Positions 15,369 to 48,151 of a stretch of DNA of 64,000 nucleotides are shown piece by piece. A program made the position numbers and the translations under genes. How positions within the stretch are numbered: the first letter of the stretch is position 1; every line of letters starts with the position of its first letter. The notes below the pieces were generated by a model. It was not told where the DNA came from. It did no database searches and saw only the letters and a program-made list of their open reading frames with translations. This stretch comes from a virus, in IMG/VR virus record IMGVR_UViG_3300045988_141143. The stretch is one strand, 5' to 3'.

Positions 15369-18182
15369 TTACAAAGCATAGACGGTCAGTTCCACCTCTC
15401 CAATGCCTTCCTTAGCCGTGATAGTTGTATTCACCTTGTCGATAAGACATTTCACACCTCCGATGTTCCACCACGTCTTCCAATGGTTAGGTATGTCGGC
15501 TATCTGTGCGACAGAAGCCGAACAGCGGATGATGTACTTCTTGCGGTTAAGCAGAAAATAGGCGTAGGGCAAAATGAAGGTATCAAAAAGACCGCGTGAG
15601 CGTATCTTGGTTATCACGTTGCCTTTGGCATCCACCTCGTCGGGGTCGCAGAGAGAAACATCCTTGTATTCCGGCTTACTGAGCCATGACGGCTCTTTGA
15701 AAGCGCGTATCTTGAGCGAGAAGCGTTCACCTTTGCCTCTGCCTTCCTGCACACCATTGTAGTCGAATACATTGCCCATCATGTCAAGAGAGTCGCAAGC
15801 AAGAGCATACTCGCCTGCTGCCGTGCGCCACTTGGAAGTACCGAAGTGGTCATAGTTATAGTCATAGGGCTCTGTGGTTGCATTCGTACCGCCGCCTCGC
15901 ATCATGGCCAAGGCAAATCCCCATCGTGAATCGTCTTGAAGAGGCGAGTTGCCGTCTTCGGTGTTTGACGGGTCGTAACTCTCGACGAGTTTCAATGACT
16001 GCTGCATATAGAAGTCGCAGAAAGGCGAGGAGATGGTCTGGTTGATGATTTGCTCGACAAACTCATGTTCCATTTCCTCGTCGACATAGGCGCAGAGGAT
16101 GGGCTGTCCTTCCTTGATAACGACACCATAGGTTGTTGTCTTTGAATCATCATAGTACTTTGCCGTATGAGAGCCGTAAGCAGCCTCTATCTCCTTGAAA
16201 TAGTTGACATCGTTGAACGGCACGGGAGTGAAGTCGATGGTGATGTCGTGGATGAAGTCTTCATTCTCCTCGCTGCAATCACCATACTCCACACCCTTGT
16301 ACTGGCCTACCTCGAAAAGTACAGGTTTGAGGTCGGCTGTAGTAGTGGCGTCGCCATTCACCTTCACGCGATAGGCATTGCCCGTCTTGCGGTCGATGTA
16401 GCATCTTTTATCTCCAGAACTTAAATTATGAAAGAAGTCAACGTAATCTCGATCGTAAACCGTTTCGTTGTCTCCACTTCCCGGTTCGGGATAGTCGATA
16501 TAGTCGTAATCGGTGGCATAGCCCATATTTTTATTCTTGCGGCTGTCCTTGACGTTCTGCTGCTGATCCTTGGCATCGCTCTCTTCGGAGTATCGCATAC
16601 GTACACCCGTTATCTTCTCGCTGACGGGAATGATAGAATGAATGTCTGCGCGGAACGTGCGTGCTGGCTGTCCACTCTCGCGAAGCACGTCACGGATGAG
16701 GTAGGCCGTGACTTTCTTTTGCTCATAGTCGTAGGAGAACTTGATGCCGAAGGCGCTTTCCAAGGATGAGATAATCGTGCTGACACTCTCATCGGGGAAG
16801 TTGTCGCTGTTGGCCACCATATAGAGCACGTTGGCCTGCACGTTGAACTTAGAGATTTGCGCCTCGATGCTGATACCAGTCACCTTGCCGCCCTCTTTTG
16901 TCGTCTCTCCCACCTGTATGTGTTCGGAAGTCCCTTCGTTAGTGGTGAGGGTGAGCTCGTTGACCGTCTTGTCCTCTGCCTTTACGATGTTGATTTTTCC
17001 ACCACAACCGCGCGACTCCAACCAGGAGTTGATATGATCTTGCTTCTTGAAATATCCTTCCTTAATCTCGCCTTCCTTCTTTTTCTTGGCGATGACTTCG
17101 GGGTCGTCCTTCTTGTAGTATGTTCCGTGATGTGGATGCTCTTTGGTATCGTAGGCGCAAACGGTGGTGAAGAAACAGAGGTGCTTCATATCCTCTATCT
17201 GCATCAGTGCCGACTTGTCGAAGGTGACACCCAAGTGAGCAAACAGGCAGTCGAGAAAATAGAGTACATAGAAACAAATGCCCGACTGCGGACGGCGTGC
17301 GTCCAACACCCAATAGGGATAAAGATCTTCGTTAGTCCACTTGCAATCCTTTGTGCTGATAATGTCGCTCGATGTGGTGCCATCGTCTGCCAGTCCGTGG
17401 TGCTTGTAGCAGATACGGGCATTGCAATAGGCTGCGGGACGGCCTGCGCCATCAGTCTCGCCATAGGCTGCCGATGTGTTGATATAGTCGCCATTCTTGG
17501 CGATGGCGGGCTCGTTGACTGAATTTCCGTTGGGGTAGGATCGTGACGACTTTCTCTTGGCATCGGCCTTCATGTGTAAAGGATAAAGGATATTGGTGGT
17601 GTACTCCTGGCACGATGCAGGATAGGAGAAGCCAAGAGCCTGCGGTTCGAGCACTTTACTTACACTTACGTGCTCAGCATGAATGGTTCGGGTGACAGTC
17701 TCGTCATCCTTATGCTTTCCTCCCTCCACAAATACACTGACATTTACAACAGGGTCGCTCTCGATGTCTACCATTACATTGCCTATCTTCTCGCCGATGA
17801 TCAGTTCATCCTTGATGGGGATGTCACGACAGTTGAGCGATCCGATGAGGTCGCTGAAACTCTGTCTGCCTGCATTAATACTCATAGAGAGCGAGTCTTT
17901 TATCTCTTCAGCATCCTGCATGACGAGCGTACCGTTGCGGAAGGGCAGTCCGTCGGCATGAATGCGCGTAGGCAAATGCTCCATGTTGACAGCACGAAAC
18001 GATGCCCGCACGTCATCGATGTTCTTTACCAGCCATCGGTTGCCGTCGAGCGGAATGGAAAACGGATAGGCGAACATCTCGTTATCATTGAACACAGGGT
18101 TTTGGTCCTCTATGTCGATAGAGAAATCATCGGGCAGCGACACAGGGCGGTCGTTGATAAGTATGGTGAGATGTGAGTTCAT
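15369..18182 (-). CDS. Large virion protein
   Basis: 937 aa, in the structural run. Confidence 0.4.
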   Translation of the reverse strand: MNSHLTILINDRPVSLPDDFSIDIEDQNPVFNDNEMFAYPFSIPLDGNRWLVKNIDDVRASFRAVNMEHLPTRIHADGLPFRNGTLVMQDAEEIKDSLSMSINAGRQSFSDLIGSLNCRDIPIKDELIIGEKIGNVMVDIESDPVVNVSVFVEGGKHKDDETVTRTIHAEHVSVSKVLEPQALGFSYPASCQEYTTNILYPLHMKADAKRKSSRSYPNGNSVNEPAIAKNGDYINTSAAYGETDGAGRPAAYCNARICYKHHGLADDGTTSSDIISTKDCKWTNEDLYPYWVLDARRPQSGICFYVLYFLDCLFAHLGVTFDKSALMQIEDMKHLCFFTTVCAYDTKEHPHHGTYYKKDDPEVIAKKKKEGEIKEGYFKKQDHINSWLESRGCGGKINIVKAEDKTVNELTLTTNEGTSEHIQVGETTKEGGKVTGISIEAQISKFNVQANVLYMVANSDNFPDESVSTIISSLESAFGIKFSYDYEQKKVTAYLIRDVLRESGQPARTFRADIHSIIPVSEKITGVRMRYSEESDAKDQQQNVKDSRKNKNMGYATDYDYIDYPEPGSGDNETVYDRDYVDFFHNLSSGDKRCYIDRKTGNAYRVKVNGDATTTADLKPVLFEVGQYKGVEYGDCSEENEDFIHDITIDFTPVPFNDVNYFKEIEAAYGSHTAKYYDDSKTTTYGVVIKEGQPILCAYVDEEMEHEFVEQIINQTISSPFCDFYMQQSLKLVESYDPSNTEDGNSPLQDDSRWGFALAMMRGGGTNATTEPYDYNYDHFGTSKWRTAAGEYALACDSLDMMGNVFDYNGVQEGRGKGERFSLKIRAFKEPSWLSKPEYKDVSLCDPDEVDAKGNVITKIRSRGLFDTFILPYAYFLLNRKKYIIRCSASVAQIADIPNHWKTWWNIGGVKCLIDKVNTTITAKEGIGEVELTVYAL

Positions 18183-28861: not shown

Positions 28862-29293
28862 TTAAGCGGTCGCTGTGATGGTGAGGGTGAGAGGCGCATC
28901 GCACACAAAGGTCTTACTGCAGCTGCAACAAGCCACACGGGCTATGCCGTTCTGAATCGCACCTACCGAAGCAGACACGGCTGTAATTGCTGTAGCACTG
29001 AACACGGGAATGGTGAAGTCCTGACTCACCACCTGGGAGCGGGTGCAGCACGTGCCGCAGTTGCAGGGCACGTAGTTGATGACACCCTCGGCGTGCATCA
29101 CCACGAGATACTGCGAAGTGCCTACCTTGACAATATTCTTCACCGAAAACTGGGGCACGAACACGGGTGTCTCGTCCACACAGGCAGGTGTGCAGAGCTG
29201 CTGCGTGATGTTCACATCATAATAAGGGGCAGTGGCTGTCGCACCTACTGCCAGAGTAGCCGTAATGACGGCTGGAATGGTTCTTTTGTTCAT
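28862..29293 (-). CDS. Secreted Cys-rich protein
   Basis: Signal peptide MNKRTIPAVITATLAVGATATA. Motifs CTPAC, CNCGTCC and CCSC. Confidence 0.4.
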   Translation of the reverse strand: MNKRTIPAVITATLAVGATATAPYYDVNITQQLCTPACVDETPVFVPQFSVKNIVKVGTSQYLVVMHAEGVINYVPCNCGTCCTRSQVVSQDFTIPVFSATAITAVSASVGAIQNGIARVACCSCSKTFVCDAPLTLTITATA

Positions 29294-29401
29294 AATCTTT
29301 TTCTTTTTTAATAAAGCGACGAAACTTGCCGCCGCATTCTTTTTAATTGATAAATAGTGCAGGACGTATCTCCTACTGTCAGAGAAAAGGCGAGGCACAC
29401 G

Positions 29402-29836: not shown

Positions 29837-30355
29837 TTACTGGTTACAGCCACAACCACAACCGCAGCCGGTCTGGCATACGTTGGAGGAAGGGATAAAC
29901 ACCTTGGTGACACTCGCAAGAGATGCCACCTGCGACTTCAGCACGTCGATGTTGGCATTGGCAGCAGCATTGTATGCCACCTGCTGTGCGTTGATCGCCT
30001 GCTGTGCGTCCTTGTTGGCATCCACCTTGTCTTCCACACGGCGCAACTTCGTGTCGAGATACTGGGTTACCTCCACCAACTTCTTGTCGGTGTAGTTCTC
30101 GCTCTTCTGGATGGCGAGCTCAGTCTTGAGTGTAGAGTTCTCCTGAATGAGGTTGGTCTCACTCTTGGTGACAAAACGTGCATCGGGGTCGGAAGGGTTG
30201 GCAGTAGCCGGACCGCCGTTTCTCGTCATGCCCAACAGCGAAGCGCCACCGCCCAAAAGGCTGGTAGCCAATCCCGCAATACCAAGGCCAAGGGCTGTGT
30301 TACCTAAGCCTTTGCTGGCAACATCATAGTTGCCGTCATTAGTTTTTACTTGCAT
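29837..30355 (-). CDS. Membrane-anchored coiled-coil protein with a C-terminal CGCGCGC tail (spanin-like candidate)
   Basis: Glycine-zipper TM GLGIAGLATSLLGGGASLLG, a long heptad-rich segment, and an ending CQTGCGCGCGCNQ. Confidence 0.4.
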   Translation of the reverse strand: MQVKTNDGNYDVASKGLGNTALGLGIAGLATSLLGGGASLLGMTRNGGPATANPSDPDARFVTKSETNLIQENSTLKTELAIQKSENYTDKKLVEVTQYLDTKLRRVEDKVDANKDAQQAINAQQVAYNAAANANIDVLKSQVASLASVTKVFIPSSNVCQTGCGCGCGCNQ

Positions 30356-30530: not shown

Positions 30531-31439
30531 TTATCGCATGGCTTCCTCAAGAGTTCTAATATAAGGTATGGCTTCGTTGCGCACAATGTCGAGAAAAAGT
30601 TGTGCTGACCGCTTCATCGGCACGTCCTTCATCCAGTGGGCATTGCTCATCAGGTCGTGCTCAAGCCCAGCGATGGGACGGACGGTAAGGGTGGGGTGAC
30701 TCTTCAGATAAAGTTTAGGCATGAAAGTAACACAATGGGTTTCTTCCACGATGGCAAGGTCTTCGTTGGGGTCGCTCACAATACATTTTACATTCAGTTT
30801 CATCAAGTCGTATCTCAGATATTGCTGGAAGGTATTGAACACCCTTTCGCCTACATCGGGCATAATCACGTTGTGCCTTAACAAATCCTCGTATGACACC
30901 TTTTCCAGTCGGGCCAAAGGATGGGTGTCCCGCATCATCGCATAGATACGGAAAGGAATACAGGGTTCTGACTTGATACCCTCATTCTTGTAGGCAGAGT
31001 TCAGAGTGAAGGCGAGGTCAATGGAGTGGCTTCTCAACAGGTGGTTCAAGTTCGCTGCCTTGGCAAACTCGGCGTTGATTCTCACATTCGGGTATCGCTC
31101 CATGAAGATAAGTGCAGCCATCCGAATGTAAGGTGCGATAAAAGAGCCTACACCTATCCTCAGCTCGCCCACAAGGCAGTTGTTGAGCGCATTGATTTGC
31201 TCCTTGCAGTCATCCGTCTGCTTCAGTATCTCCTTGGCGCGAGGCAAAAGCGCCTCGCCGCTCTCGGTGAGCATGATGCTGTGCGAGGTGCGGATAAGCA
31301 GCTTGCACCTCAGTTCATCCTCAAGAGCCTTGATGTGCTGACTGATGGCGGACTGAGTGACACAACAGCGCGTGGCTGCAATGCTGAAAGATAAAGTTTC
31401 AGCGACATATACAAATGAGCGCAAATGACGAAGTTCCAT
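30531..31439 (-). CDS. LysR-family transcriptional regulator
   Basis: N-terminal HTH MELRHLRSFVYVAETLSFSIAATRCCVTQSAISQHIKALEDEL followed by a LysR substrate-binding-like domain. Confidence 0.75.
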   Translation of the reverse strand: MELRHLRSFVYVAETLSFSIAATRCCVTQSAISQHIKALEDELRCKLLIRTSHSIMLTESGEALLPRAKEILKQTDDCKEQINALNNCLVGELRIGVGSFIAPYIRMAALIFMERYPNVRINAEFAKAANLNHLLRSHSIDLAFTLNSAYKNEGIKSEPCIPFRIYAMMRDTHPLARLEKVSYEDLLRHNVIMPDVGERVFNTFQQYLRYDLMKLNVKCIVSDPNEDLAIVEETHCVTFMPKLYLKSHPTLTVRPIAGLEHDLMSNAHWMKDVPMKRSAQLFLDIVRNEAIPYIRTLEEAMR

Positions 31440-31540
31440 AATAGTTAAATGTTAATAGACCAATAATAAATTCATGCCGCAAATTTACACAAAATATTTA
31501 AAGATAACAGAAACCTCGCATTAAAATTGCTAATATTATA

Positions 31541-31587
31541 ATAACAAAAAACCCGGTATCATAGACTTATTAGCCAAGATACCGAGT
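31541..31587 (-). terminator. Rho-independent terminator
   Basis: Hairpin CGGTATC/GATACCG followed on the minus strand by GTTTTTTGTTAT. Confidence 0.45.
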
Positions 31588-31642
31588 CTTTGAAAGTATA
31601 AATTTTAAAATCGTAAATGTTATGCCTTACAATTTAGAGCGA

Positions 31643-31822
31643 TCAATCATCATCAATCAATGTACTGGCGGTGCTTGTCGGAGTTGTACTTGCGTCTGTC
31701 GGCTTCACACTTGCAGAGCTCGTCCTTCCCGCAGTCGCTCTCGCAGCCGCTTTCTTTGCTGCTGATGTTCCTGGGTCGGCGGAATCAGTCTCGCCCTTAT
31801 CAGTTCCGCCCGTTATCCCCCC
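31643..31822 (-). other. Putative -1 programmed-frameshift extension of the upstream 188-aa structural protein
   Basis: Heptamer GGGGGGA (minus strand, 31822-31816) lies at the last codons before the stop. The -1 frame stays open for about 58 codons (ITGGTDKGETDSADPGTSAAKK...TLIDDD) within a GC-rich island. Confidence 0.3.
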
Positions 31823-32379
31823 ACTGCCTTGGAAGCAAGGAGTGAATCCCATCCTTCCGTTGCAGGATCGGTCACGTAGAGGTTAGGATAAAGCACACCG
31901 GACAATTTTGCCTCGTAGGTGGTTTTACGCTCGTCGCCGATTTTTGCGCCAGTGTCCGTTTTAATTCCACCATTGTCGAACTTCACCTTGATGTTAGGAT
32001 CGTACATGATCTGCGTCTTGTCGTTTCCCTTACCTGTTACAATGATGAAAATATCCAGGTTGTTGGCGGCGCGGGCAAGCTTGCCGGCGACCTCGTTCAC
32101 AGCGGCGACAGCAAAGTTAGAGGTGATCTCGAAGCCACCTTTATAACCAGCCGAAGAACCCTGAATCTGCTGTGTGTCATCGCTGGCTTCAACCTTGTAA
32201 AGTCCCTTACCGCTCTTGAAGGTAGGAGTAGAATAAGTGCTGCCGGTGAGAGTCAGTGGCGCAGCCAAATCACTCTTCAGACCGATATACACATTATTGC
32301 CCATACCTGCGATATTCTCCAAGCACTCGTTTTCGTTCAGTACATCCACGAGCTCAGGACATGTTGCTTTTTCTGCCAT
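31813..32379 (-). CDS. Virion structural protein (major tail or decoration-like)
   Basis: 188 aa, beta-rich and Gly/Thr-rich. Immediately downstream of the capsid gene. Confidence 0.4.
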   Translation of the reverse strand: MAEKATCPELVDVLNENECLENIAGMGNNVYIGLKSDLAAPLTLTGSTYSTPTFKSGKGLYKVEASDDTQQIQGSSAGYKGGFEITSNFAVAAVNEVAGKLARAANNLDIFIIVTGKGNDKTQIMYDPNIKVKFDNGGIKTDTGAKIGDERKTTYEAKLSGVLYPNLYVTDPATEGWDSLLASKAVGG

Positions 32380-32490: not shown

Positions 32491-33777
32491 TTACTCACTT
32501 GCCTTGAAGAAGGCAGTAAGACCCATACTCATACCAGTAGCGGTGATGGTGATGGACTTCTCCTTGCTGCCGTTGCTCCAATGTGAGAACTTATCCTTTG
32601 TACCGTCCTTTGCCTCAAGAGTCAGGATCTGGTTAGGAGTGGTTTCTACGGCCTTGTCGTATTTAGTACCGTTGACGGTTACTGAAGCGTCGGTAATCTC
32701 CTTGCCTTCAGTTTCTGCGATAGTCACTACAAGGTTAGAGTTGGTATAGTCGCCAGATACGAAGTCAGTGCAGCGCAGCTCACCATCCGTAACAGCCAAA
32801 GCCCATGAGAATGGATTTTCGATACCGTAGCCCTGAATACTCTGACACTGGAACTGCAGGTCACGTGTATCGTTGTCAGAGCCGAGGCGTACATCGACGA
32901 AAGTCTGATTACCCTCTGAATCAACAGCGAACACGAGGTTGCCGGCAACAGAGAAGATGATGCGGTCGCCTTCACCCATACCGTCTACAGGAGCGATAGT
33001 TACCTTTGGCAACTCAGGAATCTTGTAGTTACCGTCTGCTACTACGTCGAGCTTGTGAGTACCGTATGACTGGAGAGCATAAGCATCAGAGATATTGATA
33101 GCAGTCTCTGTAGTCATGTAAGCGAAAATCTGCTGACGACGAAGACGTGGATCAAGCTTCATGTAAGCTTCACGGAAGTTCTTGTAAGCAGAACTATCTG
33201 TGGAAGACGTAGGAGCTGAGATGGCTTCACAATGAATGAGGTTATGGTTAGCCTCACTGATCAAGCCGTCCTCGATGTCATGGTTGATACAGGTAATCCA
33301 GCCATCAGCCAAGCCCATAGCCTTCTCCTCTTCGGTAGCGCCCTCGTGATCGTTGTCGATGTCACCCCACCAGGCGTTATTGTAGATGTCATCTGCATGG
33401 GTTTTGATTACGGCCTCTACAGCAACAGTAGAAAGAGGATAAGCACCCTGCGCGTCTGTACCATGGATTGTCTCGCAATATCTGTCGATATTATCAGAAC
33501 CATGGAACCAAGCGAGCTTGGCAGTAAGTACGCGCTCTTTCAGGAAGCCCACCTCGCTGTTCATCTTAGGATTGACATCCTTTCGGCGAGTGGTGCCACC
33601 TTTACGCAAGAAGATGTTAGTTGTACGCTGATACTGGATGCCACTGATAACTTTTACTCCAAGACGCTGCATATCTTCAGGAGCTGCATACTGTGGTCCC
33701 ATCACGACGCTTTTAAAAACTTGGTTAGCTACCTGCTGAAGGACATCAATACCAATAAAGTTTTTAGGTGTATTCAT
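32491..33777 (-). CDS. Major capsid protein (HK97-fold candidate) with a C-terminal Ig-like extension
   Basis: 428 aa, directly downstream of the protease/scaffold gene. C-terminal Thr/Lys-rich beta domain. Confidence 0.55.
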   Translation of the reverse strand: MNTPKNFIGIDVLQQVANQVFKSVVMGPQYAAPEDMQRLGVKVISGIQYQRTTNIFLRKGGTTRRKDVNPKMNSEVGFLKERVLTAKLAWFHGSDNIDRYCETIHGTDAQGAYPLSTVAVEAVIKTHADDIYNNAWWGDIDNDHEGATEEEKAMGLADGWITCINHDIEDGLISEANHNLIHCEAISAPTSSTDSSAYKNFREAYMKLDPRLRRQQIFAYMTTETAINISDAYALQSYGTHKLDVVADGNYKIPELPKVTIAPVDGMGEGDRIIFSVAGNLVFAVDSEGNQTFVDVRLGSDNDTRDLQFQCQSIQGYGIENPFSWALAVTDGELRCTDFVSGDYTNSNLVVTIAETEGKEITDASVTVNGTKYDKAVETTPNQILTLEAKDGTKDKFSHWSNGSKEKSITITATGMSMGLTAFFKASE

Positions 33778-42199: not shown

Positions 42200-45100
42200 T
42201 TAGCCCTTGCCTTTCATAAACTGGTTGGCTTTTGTCATGCTGTCATAAAGATTACCACGGCCATACATGTCTATCTTTGCGTAGATAGGTTCATTCAGTC
42301 GGTCGAGGAGGGTCTTGACGGCTTGCATGAGAGCGGCTTGGCTGGCTGTGTTGTTAGCGATTACATTGTTGGCCGCTGGTGCGCCCAACAGAAGATTACC
42401 ATTTTCTGCTGTAAAGCCCGCTGCTGCGTCCCCCATTGCGCTCGCAAGCTCGCCGACATTACCATTGTCAAATGCGCGTCTTGCTGCACGTCTGCCTGAA
42501 TAGTTGCTGTCGTAGTTGACGAGAGCCTTGAGGAGTGCCGGATTGTTCATCATCATGGCGTGTGTCGTCTCACGACCGATTACTATCTCGGGTCCATTCT
42601 CTGCTACAAGAGAAGGCTGGCCATTGATGGTAGTAGCCCTTGGAGTAGTTATCATTTGCACGCCAGTTTTTTGCCTGCCGTCATCCTCTGTTGCCCAATA
42701 AATATCACCATTGTCGGCTACAAATGGCTTCAGGTCTTGCACGTTACCGCTGTCATACGTAAGCATACCTGAAACGAGCTTCGTGTTTTTAGATACAGAA
42801 GAAGATTTCTTACTGCTGCTGCTGAAAGCCGAATTAAGTGCCCACTGAAGCAAGCCCATCAGAGTAGCCATCACTCCTGCTGCAGCAATAGGACCAGCAA
42901 TAGGACCTAAGAACTCAAAACACTTCGCCATTGCTCCCGCGATAGAGAATGTCACCTCTTGGTCGGTGCGGGCCGCGTCCGAGTTTGCCACATCCTGATT
43001 GTTCTGTTCTTTAGCTGCAAGATTGGTGGTCATAGCCGTCTGGGTCATATCAAGAATGGCATTCTGCGCTATCTCCGTACTCTTACTTTGCTCTTTATTG
43101 CCGGCATCGGTGATGTCAGTTATATTCTTGACACCTTGATGGGTTTCTTTCTCTCTATCCTTAGCTCCCTTTTTAACCTCTTTGCTGAGTTCTTTTTGAT
43201 GCTTCCTTTCTTTCTTGAGCTGCTTGGCTTTTTCCTTGTCGTCTCCAGTTTTCTTTGAAGAACCGCCAAGAGTGAAATTGGTATTCATCAAGTCACCCAC
43301 AAGGCTGCCTCCGATACCGGCTACGGCATCGGACAGAGTAGTACCACCTGTAATAGCACCAGCAACGGCTGTTCCCGCTTGAGAGGCTGTATCAATACCG
43401 TAAGTCTCCTTGTTATAATCATGGATAGTACCGTTTGGATGACGTTTCTTCCATGCAGCAGGAGGCTCAGTATTTGCAAGATTGTTGCCGTTGGCATCAA
43501 TATACTGACCTCCTACGACACGTACCCACATCGGGTTTTCAGCCGTGCCCAGGTTACGCCAATCCATATCAATGGTAGTAGCATTAGCATTAGCATTGGC
43601 TCTCGCTGCATCAATGCCAGGCTGTGCGTTTTTCTTGCCTTGTTTCGCTCCGGCATCATTGATGGCTTTCCACATTTGGGTGTTCACGTCATTTAGCGCC
43701 ATATTAGCCCACGACTCAATCATAGACTTCAGGGCATTCTTGATGCTCTCCTGTGCGCTTGATACGTCAGACTCCATCATGGCGAAAGCCTTGCCTACCT
43801 CTGCACCGAAGGTTTCAATAGGCTGTACGAGCTGCTGCATCTGCGAAAGGCGGTTCTTCATCGCCGTCGCCATTTGGTTGGCATAAGCAAGTTCGGCCTC
43901 CTGGCGAGCCTTATCCGCCTCGTCTACCAACTGCTTGTTACGAGAGTTCTTCAGACAGAAGGCATAGTAATCTTCTGCCAGCTGCATCTTCAGCTTCAGT
44001 AGTTCTACCTCTGGGTCAGCGGTAAGGTCGGCAAGACCGAGGTTGGAAAGAAGGTTGGTCCGCTTGCCGAAGAGAGAACTTTCCTGCTGCATCTTGCGCA
44101 GCTTTGCCTGCTGATCGAGATTGCGTTTGTTGTTTTTCCAAAGAAAATCAGAAATCTTCTTGGCTTCATCGTATTCTTTTTTCTGTGCAGCTGTATATTC
44201 ATCAACATATTGGATAAGCTTGTGATAGAATAGCTTTACATTCTGCTCAGTCTCGCCCATCAACGCAAGAAAGACAGAAGGCATCTGCATATAGTCTTTT
44301 CCAAATAAGAACTGAAGCAGCTTCTGCTTCTCCCCGTTTGTCTCAAAAAGTGCCGCCATTTGTGTGCGAGCCTTTTCCAAAACTTTTATAACATCAGCCC
44401 TATCTTTATTTAGCGTTTCAAGCGAAACGTCTGCAAAACGAGAATTTATTAATCCCAAGAAAGAATTTTGTTGAACTATGCCTGTGTAATCATGTTCAAG
44501 TAGCTCCTTCCGACGTTGCTCTATGCGTTTTTGAATCACATTGCTTGAATCGTTCTCTTTTGATGAAGCATTCAGCCACATTCGGTCAAGATAAGCACGG
44601 TCGCGTTCATCTGATTTATATCCGACAACTTGCCCTTTCTTAATTTTAGGCATTTGCTTTAATAAATCAGAACGAAGTTGTGCTACATTAGTATTCAATA
44701 TGGCATCCTCAAGCATACGAGACTGAGATTGTCCAAACTCATCGTCTTTTTCCTTGCGATATTTGTCTATTGATTTTTTAAATTTATCCCAAGTTTTATT
44801 TCCAAAGACAATAGACTGCTGCGCAGCTGCAAGGGCAGCATCCATTTGTATTTGAATGTCATTAACTGCCTGTTCTTGTAATTCTTTCTCTACACCCTTC
44901 TTTGAAAGATCCTCAACAGTAGCTGTCATTTGGCGCTTATAGAAATTCTTTATCTTCGTAATAAACTCAGATATGTTGTTGCGAGCATCATCTTCAGGAG
45001 TAGTTGTGTTACCTCCACCACCGTTGCCGCCATAAACTTTTTGACCTACAGCCATTCCATCTCCTACATCAAGTTTAGCCCCAAACTTTTTCCGTAAGGC

Positions 45101-48100
45101 TTCTTCTTGTGCGTTTATTTCATCCAGTCTTGACTGAGCCTTATCTCGCTCGCGTTTCGCAGCCGCACGTTGTCCTGCCTGTCCGATTGCACCCTGTGCC
45201 TGCCCTGGCATCATAGCACCACCAGAGGTCTGAATATATCTTCCATTAGGAGCGTTCACGTGTGTATTTGCATACGCATCTTCTTTTTTCTGCAAATCAA
45301 GAATAGCATCCACTTTCTCACGACCCAATTCTGCCAACTTAGAACGAGCGCCCTCAAGTTCGTAGTAATCTTGTAGACGTTGAAAGTTTTTCTCCCATGC
45401 CTTAGTGTTTTCCTTAACAACACCCGTCTCTGTGTTAATTTTAGCGTTGAGGTTAGGAATAGCGCCATTCAATTTATTCATAGCTTCGAGGCGAAGATTC
45501 ATTGACGCAGAAGTATCGTGCATAACATTATGCAGACGCTTCAACGATTCTTGTTCCTCCATAGCCTTACGCTTACCTTCTTCTTGTACTTCGTTAAGCA
45601 CGCGCTGTCCTGCGGATAAACCGTTCAAAGAGGAAGAATATTCGGCAAGTTTTACGACCAATATACCCAATAATCCAATTAATCCTCCCATAATACCCGC
45701 CTGCTTGGCAAACGACAAGCCATTAAATGCAGCTTTAGTTTTGGCAACAACAGCCCCCAGAGACAACATACCTCCCTCTAATCCCTGAACATAAGTAAGC
45801 AGTTTTGCAAAGCCACCCGCTAATCCTGCCATACTAATCATGGTGATCAACGTAGGAAGTATGCTCAGTAGCATCTTTATAGAGGCAAAGAGCAGCGCTA
45901 ACGCTACACGAACCTCTGTCATAAAACTCATACTGGTTGTAAGTTCCTTTACAACTTCAAACCAAGCTTTTGCTATATCACGAATAGGTCCCGAAGCCGC
46001 ACTTGAAGAAACAAACTGTTTTTCAAGAAGGTTGTTAGCCCTCTCCATATACGCGGCTGCAGTTTCCTGCTGCATATTATACTCAACCGTAACAGCAGAA
46101 CCTTCATTAAAAGCTTTATTAGACTCCTTTACCGCTTTAGTAAGCATACCATTCTTGGCAGCCATTGTTACCATAGTTTTTACCAAACGAGCGCCATCTG
46201 AGCCTAAGTCCTTAAATAAGCCATCAAGAGCAAAAAGGTTTTTAGTTTCGCCCATTCTGCGGAAAATGGTTAAGATTGCATCCATACCTCTTCCACTCTC
46301 GATCATCTTCTTCAAAGAACCAGAAGCTATACCGAGTGATTTTTCAATAGGGCTTGTACCTTTACGAAGCTCTACAACCAACTTTCCAAAAGCTGTTGCT
46401 GCAACTTCTGGCTCAAGGGCCATTGAGTCAACAGCCGCACCAAGAGCCAAAATATCTGGGGTTGTTAAAGCCGCCTGTTCGCCCAATGCAAGCATACGAT
46501 TAGAGAAATCCACAATCTTTCCGCTTGTCGCTGTAGATGTAGATGCCAGTCGGAAAATCGCAGAGCCTGTTTTCAGCATAGCCTGCTCCACTCCATATTT
46601 ATCCGCAAGACCCATCACCTCAGTAATCTTAGCAAGAGCCGTCAACGCTTCATCGCCCAAATCCTCTTTCAATGCGACGTTCACCTGGTCTGCGGCACGG
46701 ACGAAGCCAGCTAAATTTTGAGTTGTAACACCAAGTTTAGCTCCCGCATAGGCCAAGTTGTTCAGTTCTTCTATGCTTGTACGGGTATCGATTTTAGCAA
46801 GTTCCTTTGATAAATTTGCTACTTCGTCAGTTGTAGATAAAGCGACCTTACGAATATTAGTAAGCTGTTCGCTATACTTCATATTAAGACGAAACAAATC
46901 CATAAAGTACGTTTTAAGCTGATTGAACATCGCAAACAATCCGACATAAGCCGTGAGGTTCTTCAGTGCTGTCTGCCATGCGCTGCCATGCTTGTTGGCC
47001 GCACCCGTCGCCTCGTCGATGTTCTTCTTCAGCTCCTTCATCGACTTCTGCTTGTCGGCAAACTCCTTACTCTTGGTATTGATTTGGTTCAGTTCCTCTT
47101 CGAGTTGCTTGTAGGCACGGCGCAGTTCGTCGAGGGAGGCCTTACCCTGCTTGCTACGGGCGAGAATGTCGTTAAGGGCACTCTGCGACATACGGGTCCC
47201 CTTGAGGGTCTGTTCGAGCATGGAGTATTGGCGACGGAGGTCGGCCACATACTTGCTGCCAGCAGGGAGTTGCTGAATCTTCTGCTGTATCACTTCCATC
47301 GTGCGCTTGATGTCTTCGCCCGAAGCCTTGTTAGGTTCAGCCAATACCTGCTTCATCTGCTTCCAGCTCATTGATGCTTTCTGAGTCTTACCCGACACAG
47401 CCTCCAGCCGCTTCTCTATCTCCTGGAGCTCGCTGTTGTATTTTGCAATATCAGCCGAATTGCCTGTAGGTGTGTTGTCGCGAGCCTCAGTAAGCGTAGA
47501 CTTGGCTCGGCGCAAATCAGATGCTGAAGCGTTTTGACTGGTTACAGTCTGATGTGCCTCTGCCACGCCCATTTTGCCCTTGCGTCTGTCCTCCTCGGCT
47601 TCAAGTTGCTTCAATGTGGCGAGATTCTGCTGATAGGACGCATCCGATTTTTGCAGCGAACCTACGAGGTCACGCTGTTGTTTGATGGCCTTGTCGAGCC
47701 ATTGATCGGATTGGTTCTTTACATTATTCAAGCCATCGGCTATCTTGACATACTGACCTTCAATAAGGCGCATTTGATCGCCCACTTGCTTCATCTCGCT
47801 TCGTATCTGCTCTGCCTTCTTCAGGTCGGCATCCGAGCCGGTGAGCTTAGCAAGAGCCGACTTGCCCGAACCCATAGCACGACGCAGGTCACGAAGCTTA
47901 GTGTTGGTGAGGTCTTGCACCACCTCGCTCAATCGCTTCGTGTCCTCGATATTGTCACGCTGCACTTGCGACAACGCCTTCAATGTGCTCTCTGCCCTCT
48001 TACACTCAGCAGTGTTAGCCTGTCCTGCGGCAGTCATCTTCTGGATGTCGGCAGTATATTTCTGCACAAGATTGTCAATCTCTTCCAACACCTTCTTGGC

Positions 48101-48151
48101 TGTAGAGGCATTGGCCGTGATTACTACTTTTGCTAATTTTTGTGTTGCCAT
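42200..48151 (-). CDS. Tail tape measure protein
   Basis: 1983 aa, extensive coiled coil with a central hydrophobic/glycine segment. Antisense ORFs are rejected. Confidence 0.7.
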   Translation of the reverse strand: MATQKLAKVVITANASTAKKVLEEIDNLVQKYTADIQKMTAAGQANTAECKRAESTLKALSQVQRDNIEDTKRLSEVVQDLTNTKLRDLRRAMGSGKSALAKLTGSDADLKKAEQIRSEMKQVGDQMRLIEGQYVKIADGLNNVKNQSDQWLDKAIKQQRDLVGSLQKSDASYQQNLATLKQLEAEEDRRKGKMGVAEAHQTVTSQNASASDLRRAKSTLTEARDNTPTGNSADIAKYNSELQEIEKRLEAVSGKTQKASMSWKQMKQVLAEPNKASGEDIKRTMEVIQQKIQQLPAGSKYVADLRRQYSMLEQTLKGTRMSQSALNDILARSKQGKASLDELRRAYKQLEEELNQINTKSKEFADKQKSMKELKKNIDEATGAANKHGSAWQTALKNLTAYVGLFAMFNQLKTYFMDLFRLNMKYSEQLTNIRKVALSTTDEVANLSKELAKIDTRTSIEELNNLAYAGAKLGVTTQNLAGFVRAADQVNVALKEDLGDEALTALAKITEVMGLADKYGVEQAMLKTGSAIFRLASTSTATSGKIVDFSNRMLALGEQAALTTPDILALGAAVDSMALEPEVAATAFGKLVVELRKGTSPIEKSLGIASGSLKKMIESGRGMDAILTIFRRMGETKNLFALDGLFKDLGSDGARLVKTMVTMAAKNGMLTKAVKESNKAFNEGSAVTVEYNMQQETAAAYMERANNLLEKQFVSSSAASGPIRDIAKAWFEVVKELTTSMSFMTEVRVALALLFASIKMLLSILPTLITMISMAGLAGGFAKLLTYVQGLEGGMLSLGAVVAKTKAAFNGLSFAKQAGIMGGLIGLLGILVVKLAEYSSSLNGLSAGQRVLNEVQEEGKRKAMEEQESLKRLHNVMHDTSASMNLRLEAMNKLNGAIPNLNAKINTETGVVKENTKAWEKNFQRLQDYYELEGARSKLAELGREKVDAILDLQKKEDAYANTHVNAPNGRYIQTSGGAMMPGQAQGAIGQAGQRAAAKRERDKAQSRLDEINAQEEALRKKFGAKLDVGDGMAVGQKVYGGNGGGGNTTTPEDDARNNISEFITKIKNFYKRQMTATVEDLSKKGVEKELQEQAVNDIQIQMDAALAAAQQSIVFGNKTWDKFKKSIDKYRKEKDDEFGQSQSRMLEDAILNTNVAQLRSDLLKQMPKIKKGQVVGYKSDERDRAYLDRMWLNASSKENDSSNVIQKRIEQRRKELLEHDYTGIVQQNSFLGLINSRFADVSLETLNKDRADVIKVLEKARTQMAALFETNGEKQKLLQFLFGKDYMQMPSVFLALMGETEQNVKLFYHKLIQYVDEYTAAQKKEYDEAKKISDFLWKNNKRNLDQQAKLRKMQQESSLFGKRTNLLSNLGLADLTADPEVELLKLKMQLAEDYYAFCLKNSRNKQLVDEADKARQEAELAYANQMATAMKNRLSQMQQLVQPIETFGAEVGKAFAMMESDVSSAQESIKNALKSMIESWANMALNDVNTQMWKAINDAGAKQGKKNAQPGIDAARANANANATTIDMDWRNLGTAENPMWVRVVGGQYIDANGNNLANTEPPAAWKKRHPNGTIHDYNKETYGIDTASQAGTAVAGAITGGTTLSDAVAGIGGSLVGDLMNTNFTLGGSSKKTGDDKEKAKQLKKERKHQKELSKEVKKGAKDREKETHQGVKNITDITDAGNKEQSKSTEIAQNAILDMTQTAMTTNLAAKEQNNQDVANSDAARTDQEVTFSIAGAMAKCFEFLGPIAGPIAAAGVMATLMGLLQWALNSAFSSSSKKSSSVSKNTKLVSGMLTYDSGNVQDLKPFVADNGDIYWATEDDGRQKTGVQMITTPRATTINGQPSLVAENGPEIVIGRETTHAMMMNNPALLKALVNYDSNYSGRRAARRAFDNGNVGELASAMGDAAAGFTAENGNLLLGAPAANNVIANNTASQAALMQAVKTLLDRLNEPIYAKIDMYGRGNLYDSMTKANQFMKGKG

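What the first reader, a model, noticed from the sequence alone, without database searches (positions are those of the whole stretch)
31640..31860. Possible -1 programmed ribosomal frameshift extending a tail or decoration protein
The 188-aa structural gene ends ...AVGG* with its last sense codons forming GGGGGGA (minus strand 31822-31816). The -1 frame is open from exactly this point for about 58 more codons. It encodes a Gly/Thr/Ala/Ser-rich, acidic-ended extension (ITGGTDKGETDSADPGTSAAKKAAARATAGRTSS...TLIDDD). The extension lies inside a conspicuous GC-rich island in an otherwise AT-rich spacer, which could serve as a stimulatory structure. A terminator follows at 31541-31587. Frameshift-extended minor forms of major tail proteins, such as SPP1 gp17.1*, are the precedent.
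Basis: inference. Interest (0 to 1): 0.55.

Follow-up and report, generated by a model that had tools for sequence, protein, structure and literature searches.

The report
Frameshift-extended phage tail tube protein
A gut Prevotella/Bacteroidales-type phage very probably makes two versions of its tail tube protein, because some ribosomes slip back one base on a run of Gs at the end of the gene and add a 57-residue floppy tail; the trick itself is already known from other phages.

Summary
The 188-aa gene (31813-32379, minus strand) ends GTG GGG GGA TAA, and the -1 frame stays open for 57 more codons, down to TGA at 31645-31643. On its own this is weak evidence, since 9% of shuffles are equally open. 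Comparison with relatives is what settles it. A structure model shows that the 188-aa protein has the phage tail-tube fold, with SPP1 gp17.1* among the best matches. I found 46 distinct versions of the cassette (the slippery run, downstream stem-loop and extension together) in relatives from three sequence collections. All keep a hydrophilic -1 extension of 20-72 codons with no start codon of its own. There are 22 different slip-site arrangements (G5, G6, G7, A4, A7, A9, G GGA AAA, A AAA AAC). In every one the run starts at codon position 3 and lies no more than one codon before the 0-frame stop. A stem-loop 4-7 nt downstream covaries strongly, with changes on both sides at 7 of 11 pairs. Substitutions are most often synonymous in the -1 frame. 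The best explanation is a programmed -1 ribosomal frameshift that yields a minor 245-aa tail tube protein with a disordered, acidic C-terminal tail. This is a new member of a known kind. One extra finding is not settled: the conserved loop motif GAGCGA is complementary to the TCGCTC that follows the extension's stop codon.

The parts
31813..32379 (-). Gene for the 188-aa (19.8 kDa) tail tube (major tail) protein, read in the 0 frame and ending ...LLASKAVGG-TAA.
31816..31822 (-). Slippery heptamer G GGG GGA (X XXY YYZ in the 0 frame), directly followed by the 0-frame stop TAA (31815-31813).
   Evidence: Relatives carry 22 different arrangements: G5, G6, G7, A4, A7, A9, G GGA AAA and A AAA AAC. 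In all of them the run starts at codon position 3 and lies 0-1 codon before the stop.
31778..31810 (-). Stem-loop 5 nt after the heptamer. The arms are GGCGGAA (31810-31804) and TTCCGCC (31784-31778), with a 19-nt loop.
   Evidence: Alignment A2 of 24 distinct cassettes. Pair counts: 81% of cells paired against 69% in shuffles (0 of 500 shuffles reach the observed value). Changes on both sides at 7 of 11 pairs. Covariation score 0.379, against 0.165 shuffled and at most 0.137 when partners are slid. The covariance model built from A2 finds only this site strongly in the window (59.9 bits), which is expected because the window sequence is in A2; the only other match is weak, 13.9 bits and E=0.087 at 16581-16621.
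31791..31796 (-). Conserved loop motif GGGCGA (GAGCGA in most relatives).
   Evidence: The nucleotides G-AGC-G-R are kept while the encoded residues vary: K/Q/T/L/A, then S or G, then E/D/G. Where the middle residue is Ser, its codon is always AGC or AGT.
31643..31822 (-). -1 frame extension ORF. It runs from the two Gly codons of the slip site through 57 new codons (ITGGTDKGE...TLIDDD) to TGA at 31645-31643. The predicted trans-frame product is 245 aa, 25.3 kDa.
   Evidence: The extension is conserved in 46 distinct cassettes, 20-72 codons long. The synonymous fraction of single-base codon differences is 0.45 in this frame, against 0.28 and 0.15 in the other two. No Pfam or PHROG match.
31637..31642 (-). 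Distal motif TCGCTC, directly after the extension's stop codon. It is the reverse complement of the loop motif GAGCGA and pairs with the window's GGGCGA through one G-U pair.
   Evidence: Present after the extension stop in 38 of 42 distinct extension-bearing loci. Present within 60 nt of the tube gene stop in only 5 of 86 distinct extension-less loci. It lies 73-199 nt from the loop motif.
31546..31586 (-). Terminator-like hairpin (CTCGGTATC ... GATACCGGG) followed by T6.
   Evidence: The equivalent hairpin plus T run is present in relatives. The simple terminator scan missed it because its loop is longer than 8 nt.

Best explanation

Most ribosomes terminate at TAA (31815-31813) and make the 188-aa tube protein. 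A fraction pause on G GGG GGA with the stem-loop (31810-31778) at the mRNA entrance. The Gly-tRNAs then re-pair one base back (GGG GGG), and translation continues in the -1 frame for 57 codons. The result is a 245-aa tube protein with a flexible, hydrophilic, acidic-ended C-terminal tail. This form would co-assemble as a minor subunit and project from the outside of the tail.

Shown here: the tube fold; the conservation and coding signature of the -1 ORF; the lack of an independent start; the slip run in the correct phase; and the covarying downstream stem-loop.

Inferred: that the shift is ribosomal rather than transcriptional, that it is a minority event (its rate is unknown), that the longer form enters virions, and what the tail does.

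For: 2. The -1 extension is kept in 46 distinct cassettes from IMG/VR, metagenome and ENA/Logan contigs. These include relatives whose tube protein is only 44-72% identical.

3. Slip sites differ (22 arrangements), but all are homopolymer-based Z_ZZN or X_XXY_YYZ motifs. All start at codon position 3 and lie 0-1 codon before the 0-frame stop. Z_ZZN is the minimal -1 site (PMC5009743).

4. A 7-11 bp stem starts 4-7 nt after the A-site codon. It shows compensatory changes, for example GGCGGAA/TTCCGCC, GCGATATTG/CAATATCGC, AGCGGGT/ACCCGCT, GGCGACA/TGTCGCC and TGGCGGGG/CCCCGCCA. No shuffle or slid control reaches the observed score.

5. Coding signature: the synonymous fraction is 0.45 in the -1 frame against 0.28 and 0.15. 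Large indels (60, 81 and 102 nt) keep the frame. Peptide motifs are shared between lineages, such as SFF..TTAKKSKK and ASINDETS..EDE.

6. No own start: a -1-frame stop lies 4 codons upstream in L005/L053 and L007, and 8 codons upstream in L047. The window's ATG is Leu in L002-L004. The extension has no ATG, GTG or TTG before codon 37.

7. One relative (P0118/L123) carries an in-frame Ig-like domain at the same C-terminus. This fits an exposed, decoratable C-terminus.

8. Precedents: SPP1 gp17.1*, the tail proteins of Listeria phages, and the T3/T7 capsid proteins (PMC9022992, PMC5009743).
Against: - There is no protein or RNA-level evidence; everything is comparative.
- In the window alone, the open frame (9% of shuffles) and the stem-loop energy (z = -0.2) are not significant.
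- In the G5 lineages (G GGG GAA), the A-site Glu-tRNA cannot re-pair well in the -1 frame. The shift there would have to rely on re-pairing of the Gly-tRNA alone.
- G-rich heptamers are not the classical efficient bacterial sites.
- The A7-A9 runs could equally support RNA polymerase slippage.
- No naturally fused in-frame version with an intact extension turned up among the best 120 protein clusters. In the one in-frame junction found (L156), two stop codons follow.
Confidence: 0.8

Rival explanations
1. Transcriptional slippage. RNA polymerase adds one extra G (or A in relatives) while copying the homopolymer run. A fraction of mRNAs then encode the fused 245-aa protein in a single frame, and the ribosome does not shift.
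For: Every slip site is a homopolymer run. Some relatives have A7 or A9 runs, lengths at which bacterial RNA polymerase slippage is known (general knowledge; reviewed in PMC5009743). The protein outcome would be the same.
Against: - Several lineages have only A4 (GCA AAA TAG, TCA AAA TAA) or G5 runs, yet keep the whole cassette. These runs are too short for efficient polymerase slippage.
- The run always starts at codon position 3. That matters for tRNA re-pairing but not for the polymerase.
- A covarying stem-loop sits 4-7 nt downstream. This is the geometry of a ribosomal stimulator.
- L138 (G GGA AAA) and L202 (A AAA AAC) carry classical tandem-slip heptamers.
Confidence: 0.12
2. A separate small gene. 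The 69-codon ORF 31643-31852 is translated from its own ATG at 31852, or from another internal start, as an independent small protein that overlaps the end of the tube gene.
For: An ATG-started ORF of 69 aa exists in the window. The region is clearly under coding selection in that frame.
Against: - The ATG is not conserved: it is Leu in L002-L004.
- In L005/L053, L007/L056 and L047 a stop in that frame lies 4-8 codons before the slip site. This cuts any upstream start off from the extension.
- The extension has no ATG, GTG or TTG before codon 37 in the window.
- The ATG comes from the conserved GGA-TGG-GAT (Gly-Trp-Asp) codons of the tube gene.
Confidence: 0.03
3. No recoding. The G run reflects a homopolymer sequencing or assembly error in a single 245-aa gene, or the downstream stretch is a decaying remnant with no product.
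For: Homopolymer runs are error-prone. L117 and L156 show broken versions of the extension.
Against: - The out-of-frame arrangement recurs in dozens of independent assemblies from three collections, with 22 different run and stop arrangements.
- None of the best 120 protein clusters is an in-frame fusion.
- The extension shows purifying selection and frame-preserving indels.
Confidence: 0.03

Closest known systems
Bacillus phage SPP1 gp17.1 / gp17.1* (two tail tube proteins from one gene)
   Different: SPP1 shifts +1 and adds a folded FN3 domain. Here the shift is -1 on a homopolymer run with a 3' stem-loop. The extension is a 20-72-aa low-complexity peptide with no domain match. There is no detectable sequence similarity.
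Listeria phages A118, A500 and PSA: frameshift-extended major tail and capsid proteins. Also the T3/T7 gene 10A/10B and Lactobacillus phage A2 capsid proteins.
   Same: A frameshift near the 3' end of a major virion protein gene gives a second, longer structural product (PMC5009743, section 9). T7 gene 10 frameshifting also depends on a distal element more than 200 nt downstream (PMC5009743, section 39). That recalls the distal TCGCTC seen here.
   Different: The tail protein shifts in the Listeria phages are +1, and many of these extensions are Ig-like domains. The hosts are Firmicutes or Enterobacteria. No member of the present Bacteroidales-phage family has been characterised: there is no match in 50,697 deposited phage genomes.
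Lambda-type tail assembly chaperone frameshift (gpG/gpGT)
   Same: It is a conserved -1 frameshift in the tail gene module of long-tailed phages. It uses homopolymer-rich heptamers such as G GGA AAG, close to L138's G GGA AAA.
   Different: gpG is a small helical chaperone encoded between the tube and tape-measure genes, and it is not in the virion. Here the shifted gene is the tube protein itself, by fold, and it lies directly after the capsid-like gene.
Apical loop-internal loop (ALIL) pseudoknot stimulators of bacterial IS3411-type elements, and the long-distance frameshift elements of luteoviruses
   Same: [quoted passage not shown] Here the loop GAGCGA and the distal TCGCTC are complementary and 73-199 nt apart.
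   Different: Pairing is not demonstrated here. Both motifs are nearly invariant, so there is no clear covariation. The distal motif is not consistently in an internal loop of a second hairpin, and it abuts the stop codon of the trans-frame ORF.

Membership tests
Programmed -1 ribosomal frameshift cassette | A slippery site in the 0 frame that allows tRNA re-pairing in the -1 frame (X XXY YYZ, or the minimal Z ZZN). | tested here: met
   The window has G GGG GGA. All 22 variant arrangements in relatives have a run that starts at codon position 3. Z_ZZN is the minimal site according to PMC5009743.
Programmed -1 ribosomal frameshift cassette | A stimulatory RNA structure a few nucleotides 3' of the slip site. 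| tested here: met
   A stem-loop lies 4-7 nt downstream. Seven of 11 pairs show changes on both sides. The covariation score is 0.379, against 0.165 in shuffles (0 of 500 reach it) and at most 0.137 when partners are slid. The energy of the window's copy alone is not exceptional (z = -0.2).
Programmed -1 ribosomal frameshift cassette | A conserved trans-frame ORF under coding selection with no independent initiation. | tested here: met
   There are 46 distinct cassettes. The synonymous fraction is highest in the -1 frame (0.45 against 0.28 and 0.15). Upstream -1-frame stops occur in L005, L007 and L047, and the ATG is not conserved.
Programmed -1 ribosomal frameshift cassette | A trans-frame protein is detected, and the shift is ribosomal rather than transcriptional. 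| not testable with these tools
   This needs mass spectrometry, reporter assays and RNA sequencing.
Phage tail tube (major tail) protein | The tail-tube / Hcp beta-sandwich fold. | tested here: met
Phage tail tube (major tail) protein | The protein forms the stacked hexameric tube of the virion, and it is the tube paralogue rather than the terminator or distal tail protein. | not testable with these tools
   Only the fold and the gene position (directly after the capsid-like gene) are known. Other tube-fold paralogues in the genome were not surveyed.
Frameshift-added Ig-like decoration domains on tail or capsid proteins (SPP1 gp17.1*, lambda gpV-type C-terminal domains) | The extension folds as an Ig-like, FN3 or Big domain. 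| tested here: not met
   The extension has no Pfam or PHROG match. About 89% of its residues are S/T/A/G/D/E/K/Q/N/P, and its length varies from 20 to 72 aa. One relative (P0118) has such a domain, but in frame.
Lambda gpG/gpGT tail assembly chaperone frameshift | The upstream ORF is a small chaperone encoded between the tube and tape-measure genes. | tested here: not met
   The upstream ORF has the tube fold and follows the capsid-like gene.
Long-range (ALIL-type) pseudoknot frameshift stimulator | The apical loop is complementary to a conserved distal element. | tested here: met
   GAGCGA (variants GGGCGA, GAGTGA, GAGCGG; all compatible through G-U pairs) faces TCGCTC. TCGCTC is found in 38 of 42 extension-bearing loci but only 5 of 86 extension-less loci.
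Long-range (ALIL-type) pseudoknot frameshift stimulator | Covariation or mutational proof of pairing, with the distal partner presented in a second hairpin. | tested here: inconclusive
   Both motifs are nearly invariant. L140/L224 shift the helix by one base (CGAGCG:CGCTCG), but L225 has the same loop C without the matching G. The distal motif has no consistent local structure.
Programmed transcriptional slippage | A homopolymer run long enough for RNA polymerase slippage (typically at least 7-9 A or T). | tested here: not met
   The window has G6. Some lineages have A4 or G5 with the cassette otherwise intact. The A7 and A9 lineages would qualify.

The most novel reading that the evidence does not exclude
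The frameshift stimulator may be a long-range pseudoknot that spans exactly the trans-frame ORF. In this reading, the apical loop GAGCGA of the stem-loop next to the slip site pairs with UCGCUC placed immediately after the extension's stop codon, 73-199 nt away.

Every ribosome that shifts would then have to melt this pairing, and would end up sitting on the distal arm when it terminates. The cassette would transiently switch itself off after each shift and so set a fixed low ratio of long to short tube protein. The whole unit (slip run, stem-loop, extension and distal arm) moves between different tube genes by recombination at the GWDSLLAS junction.
Probability: 0.3. Interest if true: 0.7.

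Novelty: new member of a known kind. Interest (0 to 1): 0.5.

Why it matters
- It adds a well-supported recoding event to a large, uncultured family of roughly 100-kb gut phages. These phages are binned mostly with Prevotella and other Bacteroidales, and nothing in them is annotated.
- Gene callers miss the long form, so virion proteomes and structural models of these phages would lack a tail surface component.
- The family is a natural mutagenesis series. It holds 22 slip-site variants and many compensatory stem variants, and could show what a -1 site needs in Bacteroidia. Their ribosomes do not use Shine-Dalgarno pairing (PMC10798248), so they cannot use the SD-like stimulators of E. coli.
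- If the loop-to-distal pairing is real, it would be a phage example of a long-range frameshift stimulator tied to the end of the trans-frame ORF.

Tried and rejected
- **Deposited phage genomes.** DNA and protein searches of 50,697 records found no match.
- **Protein family and structure libraries.** Pfam and PHROGs gave nothing for the 188-aa protein, the 428-aa capsid-like protein or the extension. PDB sequence searches gave nothing useful.
- **Rfam.** No family matches 31300-32000.
- **Window-only statistics.** The open -1 frame occurs in 9% of shuffles, and the stem-loop has z = -0.2. Neither is significant alone.
- **Simple terminator scan.** It missed the minus-strand terminator because the loop exceeds 8 nt, and it reported an irrelevant plus-strand site.
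- **Independent 69-aa gene from ATG 31852.** Rejected, because the ATG and the upstream open frame are not conserved.
- **Tail assembly chaperone (G/GT) reading.** Rejected, because the upstream protein has the tube fold.
- **Ig-like extension.** Rejected.
- **Bacteroidetes O-glycosylation motif D-[ST]-[AILVMT].** Checked by eye in the extensions. It is present in the window (DSA) but not consistently in other lineages, so I dropped it.
- **Covariation between the loop and the distal motif.** L140/L224 looked compensatory, but L225-L227 did not follow the rule, so this stays inconclusive.
- **A consistent second hairpin presenting TCGCTC.** Not found.
- **In-frame fused natural variants.** None among the best 120 protein clusters. 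L156 has an in-frame junction, but two stops follow.
- **A second cassette in the window.** None found with the covariance model. The only other match is weak: 13.9 bits, E=0.087, at 16581-16621.

Full report
**1. The observation**

On the minus strand, the 188-aa ORF (32379-31813) ends GCA GTG GGG GGA TAA. The heptamer G GGG GGA lies at 31822-31816 and the stop at 31815-31813. Reading one base back gives GGG GGG ATA ACG GGC..., which encodes ITGGTDKGETDSADPGTSAAKKAAARATAGRTSSASVKPTDASTTPTSTASTLIDDD. That is 57 codons, ending at TGA 31645-31643. The other two frames are closed.

GC content is 56-60% over 31650-31850, like the neighbouring genes. The real spacers on both sides are 23-32% GC. 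A hairpin plus T6 follows at 31586-31546.

Two caveats apply. The -1 frame is also open for 22 codons upstream and holds an ATG at 31852. And the open frame alone is unremarkable: 9% of shuffles of the 171 nt are equally open, and the local stem-loop is no more stable than shuffled sequence (z = -0.2). The window alone therefore cannot decide the matter.

**2. What the upstream gene is**

Pfam, PHROGs and PDB sequence searches find nothing for the 188-aa protein. Deposited phage genomes hold no relative.

The gene follows a head maturation protease/scaffold gene (PHROG 53) and a 428-aa capsid-like gene. I conclude that it encodes the tail tube (major tail) protein. The fold is shown; the role as the main tube subunit is inferred.

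Contigs that carry relatives are mostly about 70-105 kb. Where they are binned, the bins are mainly Prevotella, Prevotellaceae, Paludibacteraceae and other Bacteroidales. One is a 90-kb contig in the isolate Prevotella sp. MGM1.

**3. Comparative test of the -1 extension**

I collected the tube gene and its flanks from three sources:
- IMG/VR
- metagenome contigs
- genome contigs and exact-protein look-ups

In 46 distinct sequences, the -1 frame stays open after the tube gene's stop for 20-72 codons and encodes a hydrophilic peptide. This covers nearly all of the roughly 45 loci listed at 62% or more identity to the window's tube protein, a distant one (L047, 47%), and recombinants at 44% (L202-L208). 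The exceptions among the loci at 62% or more are:
- L058, where the extension is deleted.
- L117, where a 1-nt deletion breaks it.
- L156, where an in-frame junction is followed by two stop codons.
- Five loci from genome bins with no extension at all (L209, L210, L211, L213, L214; 62-70%).

The peptides begin alike ([IV][TVS]G[GD]T[DE][KQ]..S[EDG]) and share motifs across lineages, such as SFF..TTAKKSKK and ASINDETS..EDE. Indels of 60, 81 and 102 nt keep the frame. Among codons that differ by one base, the synonymous fraction is 0.45 in the -1 frame, 0.28 in the tube frame and 0.15 in the third frame. The stretch is therefore translated in the -1 frame.

**4. It has no start of its own**

In L005/L053 and L007/L056, a stop in the -1 frame lies 4 codons before the slip site. 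In L047 it lies 8 codons before. The window's ATG at 31852 arises from the conserved Gly-Trp-Asp codons (GGA TGG GAT) and is Leu in L002-L004. Inside the extension, the first ATG, GTG or TTG is at codon 37. Entry from the tube gene's frame is the only conserved route.

**5. The slip site**

Relatives show 22 different arrangements:
- NNG GGG GGA TAA
- GTG GGG GGT TAA
- GTG GGG GGG TAG
- TCG GGG GGA GCG TAA
- NNG GGG GAA TAA or TAG
- CCG GGA AAA TAA
- GCA AAA TAG and TCA AAA TAA
- NCA AAA AAA GNN TAA or TAG
- TCA AAA AAA AAG TAA
- TCA AAA AAC GCG TAA

In every case the run begins at the third position of a codon. A P-site tRNA, and often an A-site tRNA as well, can therefore re-pair one base back. 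The 0-frame stop follows within 0-1 codon.

This matches the known rules for -1 sites: tandem X XXY YYZ, or the minimal Z ZZN (PMC5009743). In the G5 lineages only the Gly-tRNA can re-pair well, so a single-tRNA slip has to be assumed there.

**6. The stimulator**

A stem starts 4-7 nt after the A-site codon and ends 16-28 nt further on. The arm sequences differ completely between lineages yet stay complementary. Examples are GGCGGAA/TTCCGCC (window), AAGCGGAACTG/CAGTTCCGCTT, GGTGACA/TGTCGCC, GCGATATTG/CAATATCGC, AGCGGGT/ACCCGCT, TGGCGGGG/CCCCGCCA and TTAGCGGTG/CACCGCTAA.

On an alignment of 24 distinct cassettes, the pair counts were:
- 81% of cells pair, against 69% in shuffles (0 of 500 shuffles reach this).
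- 7 of 11 pairs show changes on both sides, and one pair takes four forms (AU, UA, CG, GC).
- The covariation score is 0.379, against 0.165 in shuffles and at most 0.137 when the partners are slid.

The arms encode different residues in different lineages, so protein constraint cannot explain the complementarity.

A structure 3' of the site is the geometry of a ribosomal stimulator. Bacteroidia ribosomes do not use Shine-Dalgarno pairing (PMC10798248), so a 3' structure is the expected kind of stimulator in this host group.

**7. Ribosomal or transcriptional?**

The outcome would be the same if RNA polymerase added a base within the run, and the A7 and A9 lineages could allow that. Three points argue against it as the general mechanism:
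- Lineages with A4 or G5 runs keep the whole cassette.
- The phase of the run is constant.
- The covarying structure lies downstream.

I put ribosomal frameshifting at about 0.8 and transcriptional slippage at about 0.12. Only RNA sequencing can settle this.

**8. An extra, unsettled feature**

The loop holds a nearly invariant GAGCGA. The window has GGGCGA, and other variants are GAGTGA and GAGCGG.

The nucleotides are conserved while the residues are not. The preceding codon is AAG, CAG, ACG, CTG or GCG (K/Q/T/L/A), always ending in G. The middle codon is AGC or AGT (Ser, never TCN), or GGC (Gly) in the window's own clade. The next codon starts with G.

Directly after the extension's stop codon comes TCGCTC, the reverse complement of GAGCGA. 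It is there in 38 of 42 distinct extension-bearing loci. It lies within 60 nt of the tube gene's stop in only 5 of 86 distinct extension-less loci. The two motifs are 73-199 nt apart. All loop variants remain able to pair through G-U.

This resembles the apical-loop pseudoknots of IS3411-type elements (partner 44-104 nt downstream). It also recalls the unexplained distal element of T7 gene 10 frameshifting (PMC5009743).

But both motifs hardly vary, so there is no real covariation. L140/L224 look like a one-base shift of the helix, yet L225-L227 do not follow that rule. The distal motif has no consistent local structure, and it also occurs in a few extension-less lineages. I therefore treat the pairing as a hypothesis, at about 0.3.

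**9. Function of the extension (inferred)**

The extension is short, variable in length, rich in S/T/A/E/K/Q/P, and usually ends acidic or in KKSKK. It has no domain match. It is most likely a disordered arm on the outside of a fraction of tube subunits.

This would be the counterpart of the Ig-like and FN3 domains that other phages add to tube proteins, sometimes by frameshifting (PMC9022992, PMC5009743). One relative (P0118/L123) indeed has an in-frame Ig-like domain (PF13287/PF13290) at this C-terminus. What the arm binds is unknown.

The cassette behaves as a module. L204 and L141 have tube genes only about 50-60% identical in DNA. Yet their last 30 nt or so, plus the 260 nt downstream, are 94-100% identical.

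**10. Verdict**

This is a new, well-supported member of a known kind: a frameshift-extended major virion protein, closest in concept to SPP1 gp17.1*. It sits in an uncharacterised family of gut phages.

It differs from the precedents in three ways: the direction of the shift (-1), the nature of the extension (a disordered peptide) and the possible long-range loop pairing. Interest is moderate.

Noticed in passing
window 30531-31439 (-): A complete LysR-family transcription regulator gene (HTH_1 plus LysR_substrate) sits directly after the tail tube gene's terminator, inside the structural gene module. It is kept in the close relatives (95-99% identical) and in L006 (82%). LysR-domain genes were also called downstream of the tube gene in L224 and L225. 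Some relatives lack it: in L047 the next structural gene follows directly.
   Followed up: partly
window 32491-33777 (-) versus 31813-32379 (-); loci L001-L005: The capsid-like 428-aa gene is 99% identical between the window and L001-L005, whereas the adjacent tube gene is only 88-90% identical. This points to mosaic exchange of the tube gene.
   Followed up: partly
L204 and L141 (tube gene plus 260 nt downstream): The tube gene bodies are about 50-60% identical in DNA. The last 30 nt or so (GWDSLLASKKE) and the whole frameshift cassette with its extension are 94-100% identical. The cassette is exchanged as a module by recombination at the conserved C-terminal junction.
   Followed up: yes
P0118 / L123 (tube gene ends at about 2283): One relative encodes a 263-aa tube protein with an in-frame C-terminal Ig-like domain (Pfam PF13287 Fn3_assoc and PF13290 CHB_HEX_C_1), in place of the frameshifted peptide.
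   Followed up: partly
L156 470-650: The slip run and stop are replaced by an in-frame junction (TCA AAA AGT ACA AGC GAT ATT). The extension then carries two in-frame stops: TAG where relatives have CAG, and TAA where relatives have AAA. This could be decay, assembly error or something else; I did not resolve it.
   Followed up: partly
window 31637-31642 and 31791-31796 (-); 38 of 42 related cassettes: The conserved loop motif GAGCGA and the conserved TCGCTC directly after the extension's stop codon are reverse complements, 73-199 nt apart. TCGCTC also occurs just after the tube gene's stop in a few extension-less lineages (L058, L127, L190, L191, L221).
   Followed up: partly
window 29837-30355 (-) and 28862-29398 (-): The two ORFs downstream of the LysR gene are odd. 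The 172-aa one ends in a Cys-Gly repeat (CQTGCGCGCGCNQ). The 178-aa one is Cys-rich. Neither has a Pfam or PHROG family match that passes threshold.
   Followed up: no
window 42200-48151 (-): A very long ORF of 1983 aa on the same strand as the structural genes. I did not examine it.
   Followed up: no
L107, L111, L177 (just after the tube gene stop): In one extension-less clade, a 391-467-codon ORF in the +1 frame starts right after the tube gene. It is rich in Lys and Glu with a long charged C-terminal part. It is probably just the next gene, but I did not check this.
   Followed up: no
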